Source of the DNA: Rhizophagus irregularis
Taxonomy: Eukaryota
Length of the DNA stretch: 64,000 bases
Direction of reading: 5' to 3'
Assembly (NCBI RefSeq): GCF_026210795.1
Contig: NC_089434.1
Span: forward strand, 1 to 64,000
Positions within the stretch are counted from its first letter, which is position 1, and every line of letters starts with the position of its first letter. The notes under the pieces are model-generated. The model saw only the letters and a list, made by a program, of their open reading frames with translations, had not been told where the DNA came from and searched no databases. The position numbers were made by a program, and so were the translations under genes. Below, in pieces: positions 14,968-23,784 of the stretch.

Positions 14968-17900
14968 ATCAAGACGAATCGAATGGTAGTAAAATCACAT
15001 GTCTACAGTTGATAGAACACTTTATAGTATGCAATTAAGTTTTAAATTAATAGAAAGTCATCTATCGAATATAAAGATACGATTTTACTACCATTCGATT
15101 CGTCTTGATGAGCTGATTCCAATGAGTTATTCATTCTGATTGGATCAGTAGATAGCAAGATATTCTTAAATTACTATAATTATTCAAATTTAAGAGTGTA
15201 AATTTTTGTAATATTATATTTTTAGTGTAATATTTTGAAATTTTATACCACCTCTGAAATATTACACTAAATTATGTTTAAACAAATTTCCTGATGTAAA
15301 TTATAAACTTATGGTATAAGATTATAACTGGTAAGAAATTCATAAATAGGTTCAAAAAACTTTTCTCCAAATTTAACAAGACAACATAATTGAAGATTAA
15401 GCTTAATATTATTTAATTATGAATAGAATATTTTTAATTTTTCAATATATCTTTGTGGCACTTTTTTAATAATGCTTAATTTTTAGACAAACCATTAAGT
15501 AAATTGAAGGTAGATTGCATATTGTTCAAAATATTGTTTTGCTGTTCGTAATTTATATAACCATCTCATCCTAATTGGTTTTTAATATTTTGTTAGATTA
15601 TAATTTAAAAGTTTTTTATAAAGTTGATATATTACATCTGTTTTTATATTTAAAGAATTATCTTTATCACTTTCATTATATCCATCATGAAGATAGAAAG
15701 CCAGATTTATTAAATTATATGGATGTTCTTTTAATAATAATCCTGATAGTGAGTCAAGTTTTCCAAATGCTATATTTTTAAAGTTCATTAATATGATTTG
15801 AACAACATGTAATCTATAAGGAATATGAAAAAAATCTGCAGCTGCTATTGTATTGAAGCATATTATTGCGCCTTCTTTTTCTGCTGACATATATGTTGTA
15901 TTATCACCCTATAAAAAATATGTATATAGTTTTTATATTGTATATACATATTTTTGATACAGTTCACATTTTTACATATGGCATATCAGTATAATGTATA
16001 CTGTTCGCAATATGTGTTTAGTAAAAAATATAATAAAGTATATGGTAAACATATTGTGTAATACAGTATATTAAATTCATACGTTTATAACATATACCAT
16101 TTCTACTGTATATCAGTATTTTGTATACGGTTCACAAAAATATTGTAAATAAAGGATACGGTATACGTATTATTCTACAGTATATTAAAATTTATACATT
16201 TATAACGTATTTTCTACAGATATACACAGGTCAAATAAATAAAATCAGATTTTTGCTCTTTTTAATATGGCTGTCTTATAGATGTCATCAGAATTCCCTA
16301 ATTATGACATTTTGGAGTTACAACATATGTTATTAATCATGCCGTAACCATAATAAAATGCTATAAATCATAAATGCCATAATTCTGTAATTTAATTTGA
16401 TGCTGTAATGCCATATTTTAATCTAGCGTTGTAATGCCACAAATAGCCGTAAATATTTTTTTTTAAAAAAAAATGTTTACAATGCACCTTTTTTTTTAGA
16501 AACAGTTCTTTCTGAAATATTATTAACTTCTTTTATTTTATTTTTAGAAGTATTTTCTCATATTTCCCAGACTTCCTGTAGGTAAAGGTTTTTTTTTATT
16601 TACTTTTAACAAATGATATTAACTAACTTCATTTCTTTTTCTTTGTATTTAGGAACAGTTCTTGTGGACTTATTGTACCTCCTAGTAAATAGTAAAGGAT
16701 TTTTTTTTTTTGACATTTACTTTAGGAAATAACATTAACTTCGCTTTCTTTTTTCTTTTTTAGAAGCAGTTCTTGCAGGATTTCTTGGATTTTCTGGTAA
16801 GTGGAAAGAGGTTGTTTTTGATATTTACTGTCAAAAACAACAACTAAATTTATTTCTTTTTTTCAGAACAATTTTTGTGGACTTCTTAGACGACTTCATG
16901 GTTAAGTAAAGAGGATTTTTCTTAACATTTATATAATAATGTATGCAAAAAAAACATGTCTAATAAAAAGTAACCCAACAATAGTACATATATAAAAATG
17001 TTCTTATTTTTATATAATAATGTATGCAAAAAACACGTCTAATAAAAGTAATCCAACAATAGAATGTATATAAAATGTTTTTGTTTTTATTTTTATTAAG
17101 ATGTTAATTTGTATAAAATACAAAAAACTAAATAAGATACACGAAGAACTTTGTAGGTAGGGAATGGTTCAACCATTGACGAATCTATGGTAAGCAGAGG
17201 AAAGTTTCTTGCATTTACTTTTAAGAAATATTATTAACTTTCATTTCTTTATTCTTTAGGAACATTATCTAGTTACCTGTTGGAATTGAACTAGTTTGGA
17301 CAAATGTCTAAACCATTAATAAATAAAATTGAAACAAATCAAACAACTTAGAAATTTTTGAAATTTTTTATTATTACGAAATAAAAAATATTTTGTGTTA
17401 CATAAACTTTTAATCAGTTGATGTGTAACATGAATCACAATTTTGATAATCTTTTTTTTAATTTAAATAATCTTACAAATTGTGTATTACATTTTTGCTT
17501 TTACATAATCTTTGTGACTGTAAAAATGGATTCAACAGATTTATTTGATAATCAAAATATTAGAGAAGTTAGAAGGGGTCGTAAAAAATCACATGTCTGG
17601 GATCATTATTTTAAAGAACCATTGGGTAGTGAGCATTACATAGCTAGATGTCATTACTGTAATCAAAACTGGTCTAAAGGAAAACCAGAAATTTTGAAGC
17701 CACATTTAGCATTGTATTGTAAAGATGTTCCACTATATATTAAAACAGAATATATGGAAATGCTGGCTGTTGAAACTACATCTACTAAGCATAGCGAACA
17801 TGCTTATATCACCTTGCCGATCATTTGCCGATCATATTATATGTGATATCACACTAATTTTGAGACTTTATTCCAGGCCATAAATATTCTAAAAAATCAT

Positions 17901-18476
17901 TTTAAATTGTTTTTTTAATAGTATAATATATTAATAATTTAGTATAAAAATTTTGTAGCAAAATAAAATGTGGCGCCAAAGTTAGCTTTAGGCCGAAATT
18001 TTCAATATTTGATATATATGCTGATCATTTCCTAATCGGACTTTGGAGCATCGGGCGAAGCCACAGATGTTCGGGCGAAATTTGAAACTTTTACAATATA
18101 TTAATTAGGTATTCAAGAATTAATGGCTAAAATAACCAAGAATAATTTTTAATAATCAAGAAGTTATCATTAAATAAAGACTTGCAATTGTTATAAGGTT
18201 AATAAGGTTAATTTTTGGCACATCTTATGAACTATTTTAAGAATTAATTCATTAACAATATAAAATAAATAAATAAAGTAAAATGATTAAAATTTATATG
18301 GTTCACTTTTTTATAAATAGTCCTTTAAAAAATTCACAAGAAATATTTATAAAATTAACATCATTTTCAATATAAAATATTATTATTCAATTTAATATAA
18401 AAAATATTATTTTTTTTAACTTAATACAAAATAATACTTTTTTAACTTTAAATTTCTGAAATTTTATTCAAAAAAA

Positions 18477-21317: not shown

Positions 21318-21980
21318 TTAAAAAGTTGCTACTAATAAATCTTATTCAATGATGATGAGGTTTCATAAATCAGTAAAGTTAGATCAATATTAAGTATTTT
21401 GTAACTGAAATTTGAGCCATATTATTATGCAGAATTGTTTAATTAAAGTTTATTAAACAATATGACAGCATTTTATTAAAAGTTAAAGTTTCTACTAATA
21501 AAAGTTATCCAATAATAATGTGATCCAAATAAAATTTGATACACAGTAAATTCAAATCAATAATAAGTTGTTTGGAAATTTTGAGCATATATTATTATGT
21601 AGAATTTTCCAATTTAAGTTAATTAACTTAACATAACAGTAAATATGCTATTATATTAAGTTAATTAACTTCGATTGGAAAATTCAACATAATAATATAT
21701 ACTCAAATTTTGCATACAGTTTAATATTGGTTTGAAATTACTGTATATAAAATTTTATTTGGATCGCATTACTATTGGATAATTTTTACTAATAGAAACT
21801 TTTAATTTTAATAAAAATGCTTAAAATTTAAAAGTTTCTACTAGTAAAAGTTATCCAATAGTAATGCGATCCAAATAAAATTTCATATACAGTAATTTCA
21901 AACTAATATTAAACTGTATGCAAAATTTGAGTATATATTATTATGTTGAATTTTTCAATCGAAGTTAATTAACTTAATTA
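21318..21980. repeat. Four ~150-bp modules (three direct, one inverted) in the 3' part of the 9-bp-TSD element
   Basis: AAAGTTTCTACTA..TTATCCAATA..GATCCAAATAAAATTT..AAGTTAATTAACTT at ~21318 (diverged), ~21485 and ~21830, with the reverse complement at ~21657-21805. Confidence 0.8.
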
Positions 21981-23784
21981 TTGCGAAGTGATAAAATTGA
22001 TTAAATGATCGACAAATGATCTACAGATGATCGGCAAAATTGTGATAAAATCGGGATGTTCGCTATGCTCATCTACTATAAATAGAAAACAAAAAACAGA
22101 TTCTGATTCATCAGTTGAGCTTACTGCGGATAAAAAAGATAAAATCGATCAAGCACTTATACGATTTTTTATTTGCTGTGGAATACCATTCTCAACCGTT
22201 GGTCATCCTTATTTTATTGATTTTGTTCAAAGTCTCTGTTTTGCTTATAGTCCTCCTAAAAGAACAACCCTATTAACAACTTTCTTAAATCATGAAACTG
22301 CTATAATTTTAAATAAAATCAAAGAAGAACTCAAATATGAAAAAAATTTAATATTAGGTAATTTATTTAATTACTGTATATCAAATTAATTAATATTTTT
22401 ACATATATATTAATATTTTTAATTTTGTTATAGCGGTTGATGAATGGTGTAATCCTTTAGGAAGATCTATTTATGCATTTATAATAATTATCGCAAGTAA
22501 AAGGCAATATATTCTTACTTTGAAAGATACATCAATGGATTCTCATACTGGAACTTTTAATGCTACTGAAATTGAAAAAGTTTTGACTTCAATTGGCCCA
22601 GAAAAATTTGCAGCTGTCACTGGTCAAAATTAATACTATCGGGTACCTATCGGGTACCTGATATGTGTATAATATATGTGATATATGTGTATGATATTTA
22701 ACAATGCTACACATATCAGGTACCCGATATGTGTAGTAGAAATGTAGAAAAATGGTGACACATCATGTACATATCACATATACATCTTACACATATCAGG
22801 TAGTTAAATATCGGTCACATATCATAGACTTATTGGGTACCCGATATATTATGATATATATCATATAGATATCATACAGATATCATACAGATATCAGACG
22901 GATAGATATAGGATAATGATTTCGTATTAATACTAGTAAATTTATTATAATTTAATTCAAGCAAAAAAATTATAAAATGCAATCATAATTTATATATTTT
23001 TTTAATTTTAATTCAAAACTTTATTACAATTTAAATTTATTTACACTTTTTAATTAAAAAAAAACAATTATACTAATTATACTTGAATACTTGAATAAAT
23101 ATATATAATATATAACTTCTACTAAAAGTAGCATAAAAATAAAATCACTTGTTTGCTTATACCTGTTTGATTATTTAAAAGAAGCATTAATGATAAATAT
23201 ATTAGTAAGAAAAAAGAGAATGTTATTAAAAAATATTAGTATAAATATATAAATATAGAAAATATTAGTAGAAACATTAGCAGAAAGAAAAAGTTAGTAG
23301 AATAAAAAATGTTAGTAGAAAGAGAACGTATATCAGTAGTAATATAATATTAATAGAAAATATTAAATAGTAAAAATGTTAATATAGTAGAAAAAAATAA
23401 TAAAAAATATATTAGTAGGAGTATTAGTAAAAGAAAAGAAAGAAACGAAAAAAAAATGGTAGAAAAACATTAATAAAGAAAAGAAATATTAGTAATATAT
23501 ACCTTTTTATGCATTTCTAGATATAACAAATAAAAAAAATATAAAAATATGTATTTCTGGTTATATTAAATAGATAAAAAATTGTGTTTTTAAGTAAAAA
23601 AAAATTGAGAACAAAGAAAATGTTTTAATAAGATAAACAAAAATGCGAAATATAAATATTTAAATCATGTGATCACATGATAACAATATTACGTAACGTA
23701 ACTTACCACATGTTATTTTATAGCCTGAATACATTTATAATTAAATTTGGTAAAATTACGTCGTAAAACAAAAATTTCTCAATC

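What the first reader, a model, noticed from the sequence alone, without database searches (positions are those of the whole stretch)
17788..22069. Apparently intact, unclassified 9-bp-TSD transposon encoding a zinc finger-DDE-RING protein
Seen: perfect 14-bp TIRs starting AGCATAG, a perfect 9-bp TSD, and a single intronless ORF broken only by two +1 homopolymer indels. The protein lacks MULE, hAT, Tc1 and CACTA signature motifs. It does have the order acidic (NIDD) - acidic (IADW) - GxxH (GPLH) - D..E (DYFVE) expected of insertion-domain DDE transposases such as Academ/DUF6589. Established: AcademH elements make ~9-bp TSDs but encode a helicase, which is absent here. The C-terminal C..C..CGHxFHxxC..CxxC looks like a RING-H2 finger. 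Inference: this is a distinct transposon lineage whose transposase may carry E3-ligase activity, loosely paralleling the RING plus DDE combination in RAG1.
Basis: partly seen in the sequence, partly recalled or inferred. Interest (0 to 1): 0.78.

Follow-up and report, generated by a model that had tools for sequence, protein, structure and literature searches.

The report
Helicase-free Academ-like transposon with RING finger
This is a real, multi-copy DNA transposon of a mycorrhizal fungus from a lineage not found in the papers searched; it duplicates 9 bases on insertion without the helicase thought to explain that length in its likely Academ relatives, and its transposase ends in a RING-like finger that many animal relatives pair with a predicted deubiquitinase.

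Summary
Confirmed. The 4,282-bp element has perfect 14-bp TIRs and a 9-bp TSD, and splits a hAT-like gene. Three of four public runs hold that site without the element, and a diverged relative shows a second 9-bp TSD. All four runs lack both extra homopolymer bases, so the family ORF (919 aa) is intact. The host is Rhizophagus-like. The predicted fold matches insertion-domain DDE transposases (P element, Hermes, RAG1), with D335/D336, D497, H535 and E692 conserved. The nearest kin is Academ/DUF6589 (shared NY-x19-P and D-x3-E motifs), but there is no helicase or XPG, so it is neither AcademH nor AcademX. Relatives occur in Glomeromycota, a nucleariid, a sponge, cnidarians, a brachiopod, a hemichordate and amphioxus. 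Nearly all end in a RING-H2-like finger, and many animal ones add a herpes-tegument-type deubiquitinase domain. E3 activity is unshown, and the fungal RING lacks typical E2-contact residues. Repbase and Dfam could not be searched. The scan earlier noted what is likely the same lineage in a coral (e1-7769259).

The parts
17779..17787 (+). Left target-site duplication (9 bp)
   Evidence: Identical to 22070-22078; single copy in empty-site contigs of 3 of 4 runs
17788..17801 (+). Left TIR, 14 bp
   Evidence: same or variant TIR at the left end of 11 of 34 related loci
17815..17834 (+). Left subterminal GATCA-containing 11-bp repeats (2 copies), likely transposase-binding sites
   Evidence: conserved in relatives; function inferred
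18477..21238 (+). Transposase gene, intronless, 919 aa in the family frame; this copy reads in three frames
18477..18796 (+). N-terminal region with two putative zinc fingers (C-x6-C..C-x2-H; C-x-H-P-x-H..C-x2-C), likely DNA binding
   Evidence: Cys/His pattern conserved in fungal relatives; model low-confidence for residues 1-62
18797..18805 (+). A9 homopolymer, +1 frameshift 1
   Evidence: one base left out in all 4 runs
19462..19467 (+). D335/D336 (first catalytic Asp, on strand 1 of the predicted RNase H fold)
   Evidence: 56 of 56 each; strand 328-338
19948..19950 (+). D497, second catalytic Asp (predicted)
   Evidence: 55 of 56
20053..20064 (+). GPLH motif at the start of the helical insertion
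   Evidence: H535 56 of 56, G532 55 of 56
20106..20112 (+). T7 homopolymer, +1 frameshift 2
   Evidence: one base left out in all 4 runs
20417..20482 (+). NY-x19-P motif shared with the published Academ profile
   Evidence: Y654 56 of 56; Academ HMM Y401..P421
20522..20536 (+). D-x3-E motif; E692 is the predicted catalytic Glu
   Evidence: E692 56 of 56; Academ HMM D450-x3-E454
20888..21010 (+). RING-H2-like zinc finger
   Evidence: 54 of 58 fungal-set and 47 of 49 animal-set proteins long enough to hold it; profile hit to RNF38, E 6.7e-4
21306..21978 (.). 3' non-coding array of about 165-bp units, one inverted (155-bp arms, 96% complementary)
   Evidence: related units in relatives
22003..22036 (-). 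Right subterminal GATCA-containing repeats
22056..22069 (-). Right TIR, 14 bp
   Evidence: at the right end of 14 of 34 related loci
22070..22078 (+). Right target-site duplication (9 bp)
17526..22633 (+). Interrupted host gene: BED-finger/hAT-like (DUF659) transposase relic, not part of the element
   Evidence: zf-BED E 0.003, DUF659 E 0.02; frame restored across the empty site

Best explanation
This is a copy of a single-gene DNA transposon family of Glomeromycota with 14-bp TIRs and a 9-bp TSD, whose transposase is predicted to be an insertion-domain DDE enzyme and is likely a distant, helicase-free branch of the Academ superfamily. Shown: the ends, the TSD, the empty site, multiple insertion sites, an intact family ORF and conserved acidic residues. 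Inferred: the N-terminal fingers and helical domain bind the TIRs and subterminal GATCA repeats; D335 (or D336), D497 and E692 cut the ends and join them to target DNA with a 9-nt stagger set by the transposase itself; host repair makes the TSD. The C-terminal RING-H2-like finger is an ancestral part of the lineage. It likely links the transposase to the ubiquitin system, because many animal members add a VTD-type deubiquitinase domain behind it. In the fungal protein it is more likely a zinc-binding interaction module than a canonical E3 (E3 activity about 0.3).
For: Ends and TSD. Empty site: joint 17778 to 22070, skipping 4,291 = 4,282 + 9, in runs X1, X7, X8. Second 9-bp TSD in L021, a relative at 68% protein identity with a variant TIR. 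Other left flanks in X4 and X8. Ten distinct OCT59_ locus tags of R. irregularis among homologs. Fold: AF2 pLDDT 76; Foldseek top hit P element transposase, E 1.9e-3; the top 44 VIA rows are all DDE transposases, best Z 9.8, rmsd 5.3, 335 aligned. Conservation. Academ link: core domain scores 0.97 to DUF6589 clusters, 28 of 30 named hits; sponge member P0330 hits PF20231 at E 0.0016; Y-to-P spacing of 20 and D-x3-E equal those of the published Academ HMM. No helicase: elements of 3.6-6.2 kb with one long ORF. dN/dS 0.24-0.36 in the core and 0.47 in the RING, 16 loci. RING. VTD: hit to 8ADB at E 0.0011 with Cys and D-x-H aligned; motif in 22 of 30 long animal-set proteins and 0 of 65 fungal-set proteins.
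Against: No Pfam DUF6589 hit for any of the 12 members of A2, and only 1 of 15 and 0 of 33 further members hit it, below the cut-off. That DUF6589 is the Academ transposase is recalled and echoed by scan notes, not tested here. No Foldseek hit reached E 0.001. Three of 4 loci with both TIRs and at least 9 bases of flank on each side show no TSD (L014, L023, L034); collapsed multi-copy assembly is the likely reason but is not shown. The empty-site contigs differ from the flank at 6 of 279 bases and may be paralogous hAT copies, so insertion polymorphism is not proven. The Y-to-E distance is 38 against 53 in Academ, and the D before E is mostly E here. RING fold searches were weak (best E 0.88; best Z 3.7 to a non-RING entry). 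The VTD Asp is Glu in 14 of 28, against an invariant Asp-x-His in PMC9741609.
Confidence: 0.78

Rival explanations
1. A separate superfamily-level lineage: related to Academ only as P, hAT and Academ are related to each other, with its own architecture (zinc finger-DDE-RING, plus or minus VTD).
For: No above-cut-off Pfam match to any transposase. The best 150 of 3,975 profile hits were scored; the 11 of them scanned had no above-cut-off Pfam hit. Own signature DD-x4-H, D-W-P-x-Q, GPLH-x2-LN-x-RE, VE-x2-HS-x2-R across opisthokonts. The best structural match is P.
Against: The DUF6589 feature match, the weak Pfam hit and the two Academ motif spacings. No Academ structure was seen among the PDB hits, so P as top hit does not exclude Academ.
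Confidence: 0.25
2. A helicase-less derivative of AcademH that lost its second gene, or relies on a helicase in trans, and is already catalogued in Repbase under an Academ name.
For: The 9-bp TSD equals AcademH's 9-10 bp (PMC10045372). Academ-1 families are annotated in R. irregularis (PMC11075540).
Against: Single-ORF layout in the TIR-bounded loci checked; the sequence is too distant for Pfam DUF6589; the RING is conserved across fungi and animals, which are two deep sister groups.
Confidence: 0.15
3. The RING finger is an active E3 ligase that ubiquitylates the transposase or chromatin at insertion sites, opposed by the VTD domain in animals.
For: Eight-ligand RING-H2 pattern kept in 47 of 56; the PDB profile hits are led by RING-H2 E3 ligases; co-occurrence with a deubiquitinase-like domain; Pro in 28 of 35 animal-set RINGs.
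Against: Four-residue gap over the Trp of RNF38; fungal RINGs have no Pro (0 of 12) and F or L after the last Cys; first Cys pair is C-x4-C; fold searches weak.
Confidence: 0.3
4. Chance repeats around a domesticated host gene, or an assembly artefact.
For: Two frameshifts in this copy; 3 of 4 testable loci lack a TSD.
Against: Empty site in three runs, conserved TIRs at 68-92% protein identity, a second TSD, several flanks.
Confidence: 0.02

Closest known systems
AcademH (Academ superfamily; DUF6589/PF20231-type transposase, the equation being recalled)
   Same: 9-bp TSD (AcademH 9-10 bp); TIRs; insertion-domain DDE with NY-x19-P and D-x3-E; fungi plus marine animals
   Different: No helicase gene; one ORF; Y-to-E spacing 38 against 53; C-terminal RING and, in animals, VTD; below the Pfam DUF6589 cut-off
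AcademX
   Same: Academ-type core; single protein (recalled)
   Different: TSD 9 bp against 3-4 bp; no XPG nuclease match
P element transposase (6PE2)
   Same: Best structural match; N-terminal zinc finger, helical domain, RNase H with insertion
   Different: TSD 7-8 bp (PMC5199201); G-x-x-H instead of C/D-x-x-H; no P-family Pfam hit; RING
RAG1 / Chapaev (RING plus DDE)
   Same: RING finger in the same chain as a DDE core; related fold (Z 6-7)
   Different: RING is N-terminal there and C-terminal here; Transib-type core; PMC4411706 stated in 2015 that RING was known in no other transposon, so this is likely an independent fusion
VTD deubiquitinases (Helitron and herpes tegument; 8ADB)
   Same: Animal relatives carry the domain with Cys and (D/E)-S-H; PMC9741609 notes cnidarian VTDs fused to transposon-associated domains
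   Different: Absent from this element and all 65 fungal-set proteins; here on a DDE TIR element rather than a Helitron; Asp often Glu

Membership tests
TIR DDE DNA transposon | Terminal inverted repeats | tested here: met
TIR DDE DNA transposon | Fixed-length TSD with empty site | tested here: met
   9 bp here, empty site in 3 of 4 runs, 9 bp in L021; absent in 3 other testable loci
TIR DDE DNA transposon | RNase H fold with conserved D, D, E | tested here: met
   (predicted model)
TIR DDE DNA transposon | Multiple insertion sites | tested here: met
   different flanks in X4 and X8; 10 locus tags in one assembly
Academ superfamily | Conserved C-terminal core motifs (near-invariant Y, P at +20, D-x3-E) | tested here: met
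   by eye against positions 399-423 and 450-465 of the 465-position published HMM; the D is E in 42 of 56
Academ superfamily | Significant profile similarity to Academ transposases | tested here: inconclusive
   DUF6589 by features 0.97; Pfam E 0.0016 in one member, below cut-off; none in 12 members; no Repbase sequences available
Academ superfamily | Placement in the Academ clade of a transposase tree | not testable with these tools
   no Academ sequence was returned by any tool
AcademH | 9-10 bp TSD | tested here: met
AcademH | Encodes a helicase | tested here: not met
   no second long ORF in the element or inside the TIRs of the loci scanned; Walker A plus DExH pattern in 1 of 246 proteins, not followed up
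AcademX | 3-4 bp TSD | tested here: not met
   9 bp
AcademX | XPG nuclease domain | tested here: not met
   no Pfam hit; the protein ends 70 residues after the RING
P / hAT / MuDR / Kolobok / Dada | C/D-x-x-H signature | tested here: not met
   G-P-L-H, G in 55 of 56; signature per PMC9587614
Kolobok | TTAA 4-bp TSD | tested here: not met
RING-H2 E3 ligase | Eight zinc ligands C3H2C3 | tested here: met
RING-H2 E3 ligase | Cross-brace RING fold | tested here: inconclusive
   model pLDDT 83; 7 of the top 9 Foldseek rows name a RING or Pirh2 but E is 0.9-2.9; VIA best Z 3.7
RING-H2 E3 ligase | E2-contact residues (helix Trp, Pro, basic linchpin; list recalled) | tested here: not met
   fungal members; partly kept in animal members
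RING-H2 E3 ligase | Ubiquitin-transfer activity | not testable with these tools
   needs a bench assay

The most novel reading that the evidence does not exclude
An unrecognised superfamily-level group of opisthokont DNA transposons, older than the fungus-animal split, whose single transposase carries its own ubiquitin-system modules: a C-terminal RING ligase and, in many animals, a herpes-tegument-type deubiquitinase. It would be an independent RING-plus-DDE fusion, and it would show that the 9-bp Academ-type TSD needs no helicase.
Probability: 0.25. Interest if true: 0.82.

Novelty: new variant of a known kind. Interest (0 to 1): 0.64.

Why it matters
First, the two TSD lengths of Academ elements have been attributed to their accessory enzymes, helicase versus nuclease (PMC10045372). 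An Academ-like element with neither enzyme and a 9-bp TSD makes that testable with one intronless 2.8-kb gene. Second, two-thirds of R. irregularis repeats are unclassified (PMC11075540); this defines one young family with ends, TSD and catalytic residues, and explains many 'RING-type domain' gene annotations as transposases. Third, a C-terminal RING, paired in animals with a deubiquitinase-like domain, points to transposases that may control their own turnover or their chromatin targets through ubiquitin.

Tried and rejected
No whole genome is held, so copy number and TSDs could not be counted genome-wide; only two TSDs and one empty site are in hand. A second read-laying for more flanks gave no result. 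No RNA holder was listed. A single-sequence PDB search gave nothing. Viral contigs: 15 pattern matches, none a relative. Prokaryotic genomes: one contig in a soil Bacteroidetes MAG, 71% identical and bounded by the same TIR type, rejected as likely fungal contamination. A PF20231 search in that MAG rang nowhere, controls included. Pfam found no transposase family for the element. The wide fold search of the RING was uninformative. Recent fungus-animal transfer is not indicated: each group is one side of one branch, support 100, in a quick unrooted tree of 35 of 56 rows; labels of unnamed proteins are inferred. Literature searches listed no description of this lineage. The AcademH paper and Yuan and Wessler 2011 are not held, and Repbase and Dfam cannot be searched, so absence from print is not established. 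PMC12730594 has no Academ passage. No complex was predicted: no eukaryotic E2 could be supplied.
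Full report
Observation. The element spans 17788-22069 (4,282 bp). Its 14-bp ends are perfect inverted repeats, flanked by the 9-bp direct repeat CATCTACTA. It splits a BED-finger/hAT-like gene whose frame reopens when the element and one repeat copy are removed. The window starts with TTAGGG-type telomere repeats and is dense in transposons. 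The closest named homolog is from Rhizophagus irregularis, 93% identical over the middle frame, so the host is likely Rhizophagus or a near relative.

Ends and TSD. Logan contigs of 3 of 4 runs join 17778 to 22070, skipping 4,291 bases, which is the element plus 9. These contigs differ from the flank at 6 of 279 bases and may be other copies of the hAT-like repeat, so they fix the TSD length but do not prove polymorphism. Runs X4 and X8 show other flanks at the left end. Of 34 related loci, 11 have the left TIR, 14 the right, and 8 both, 3.6-6.2 kb apart. Four of those 8 have at least 9 bases of flank on each side. One (L021, 68% protein identity, variant TIR) has a 9-bp TSD; three have none, likely because assemblers collapse multi-copy repeats. 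Short GATCA repeats lie inside both ends in the relatives inspected.

The ORF. Intact homologs of about 920-930 aa align across three frames, with +1 shifts at A9 and T7. Contigs of all 4 runs lack the extra base at both places, so the family ORF is intact and near-identical copies exist (one 1,938-bp contig has 7 differences). Nine loci scanned for ORFs show no second long ORF inside the TIRs.

Fold and catalytic residues. An AlphaFold2 model of homolog P0003 (pLDDT 76) matches P element transposase best (Foldseek E 1.9e-3; none reached 0.001). The top 44 VIA rows are all DDE transposases: P, Hermes, Tn5, ISCth4, RAG1, Transib. In 56 diverse homologs (25% mean column identity) D335, D336, H535, Y654, E692 and H695 are invariant and D497 is kept in 55. 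dN/dS over 16 loci with intact ORFs (two more were dropped for broken frames) is 0.24-0.36 in the core and 0.47 in the RING.

Range. Profile searches found relatives in Rhizophagus, Diversispora and Gigaspora, many cnidarians, and a nucleariid, a sponge, Lingula, Ptychodera and Branchiostoma. The search counted 3,975 cluster representatives at E <= 0.001, 692 at 1e-30; only the best 150 were listed. Fungal-like and cnidarian-like members separate on one branch, consistent with old vertical descent; the tree is unrooted and quick.

Classification. The C/D-x-x-H signature of P, hAT, MuDR, Kolobok and Dada is replaced by G-P-L-H. The core scores 0.97 against DUF6589 clusters in the ESM Atlas (whole protein 0.84), and one sponge member hits PF20231 weakly. 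In the published Academ HMM (supplement of PMC5751038) a near-invariant Tyr is followed by Pro 20 positions later and by D-x3-E; the family has Y654, P674 and D688-x3-E692, with a linker 15 residues shorter. Against this, 12 of 12 members of one alignment miss DUF6589. AcademH makes 9-10 bp TSDs and encodes a helicase; AcademX makes 3-4 bp TSDs with a nuclease, and the difference was attributed to those enzymes. This element has the AcademH length with neither enzyme. It works like an Academ element but fails membership of both named lineages.

RING and deubiquitinase. The C3H2C3 pattern is in 54 of 58 fungal-set and 47 of 49 animal-set proteins long enough to hold it. The family profile hits RNF38 at E 6.7e-4 with a four-residue gap over its Trp. 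Fungal RINGs lack the Pro before the last Cys pair (0 of 12) while animal ones mostly keep it (28 of 35). Fold searches of the isolated domain were weak. Many animal members carry a further domain: weak Herpes_teg_N hits and a profile hit to the VTD deubiquitinase 8ADB at E 0.0011, Cys and D-x-H aligned. The 28 proteins of that alignment were picked by the Cys motif, so its Cys invariance is circular; the His (28 of 28) is not. The motif is in 22 of 30 long animal-set proteins and 0 of 65 fungal-set ones. PMC9741609 mentions cnidarian VTDs fused to transposon domains and proposes protection from proteasomal degradation for Helitron VTDs. RING plus DDE is known from RAG1 and Chapaev, N-terminally.

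Mechanism. Inferred: a transposase multimer binds TIRs and subterminal repeats, excises the element and integrates it with a 9-nt stagger; the 18 nine-base flanks seen show no obvious shared sequence (by eye). Whether excision uses a hairpin is not determined. The RING likely couples the protein to ubiquitin-pathway partners; canonical E3 activity in the fungal protein is doubtful.

Papers seen. Passages: PMC10045372, PMC5751038 (plus 3 of 94 supplement parts), PMC10799480, PMC4455052, PMC5199201, PMC4411706, PMC11075540, PMC9741609, PMC9587614. No matching passage: PMC12730594. Not held: Kojima 2020 and Yuan and Wessler 2011, whose supplements could bear on membership. Earlier scan notes: nothing by sequence or place. 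By words, two Academ-related elements and a coral element with unclassified transposase, RING-like finger and tegument-like deubiquitinase, likely this lineage; I did not compare sequences, and I found the domain before that look-up.

Verdict. A real, young transposon of an apparently undescribed Academ-related lineage: new variant of a known kind, interest 0.64.

Noticed in passing
window 1-788: Telomeric TAACCC array, 131 copies; the window is a chromosome end.
   Followed up: no
window 6623-12468: MULE element with about 1.2-kb TIRs at 98-99% identity containing 156-bp repeats, around a MULE/SWIM-type transposase; looks recent.
   Followed up: partly
window 13310-15307: Nested inverted repeats (154-318-bp arms); includes a short element at 14724-14967 with 12-bp inverted ends and an 8-bp direct repeat.
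   Followed up: no
window 22634-22910: The hAT-like host frame ends again at a cluster of short GGTACC/ATATC direct and inverted repeats, possibly a second insertion.
   Followed up: no
window 23993-31013: 81-bp satellite (about 75 copies) interrupted at about 25060-25995 by an element with an internal 80-bp tandem array.
   Followed up: no
window 33490-37221: hAT-like fragments flank a Tc1-type transposase ORF (34557-35627), likely another nested insertion.
   Followed up: no
window 38604-39863 (-): DNA polymerase B (organellar/viral type) with a weak endonuclease VII hit, likely a Polinton-like relic.
   Followed up: no
window 43023-46286, 48508-48999, 57003-58325, 63216-63920: CACTA Tnp2 transposase, Crinkler N-terminal domain, pogo-type DDE_1 transposase and a C17orf113-type zinc finger.
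   Followed up: no
window 21306-21978: About 165-bp units in the 3' non-coding part, with one inverted copy that could form long hairpins; related units occur in relatives. Role unexplained.
   Followed up: partly
window 17992-18155: This stretch of the 5' region has far higher summed contig depth in three runs than the rest of the element, suggesting it is shared with many subfamilies or non-autonomous copies.
   Followed up: no
L034 120-4006: A complete element of this family sits in a soil Bacteroidetes MAG, likely fungal contamination.
   Followed up: partly
L008, L013-L017 (proteins such as P0028): A subfamily of about 1,020-1,050 aa; P0028 and its close relatives have the second N-terminal finger duplicated.
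   Followed up: no
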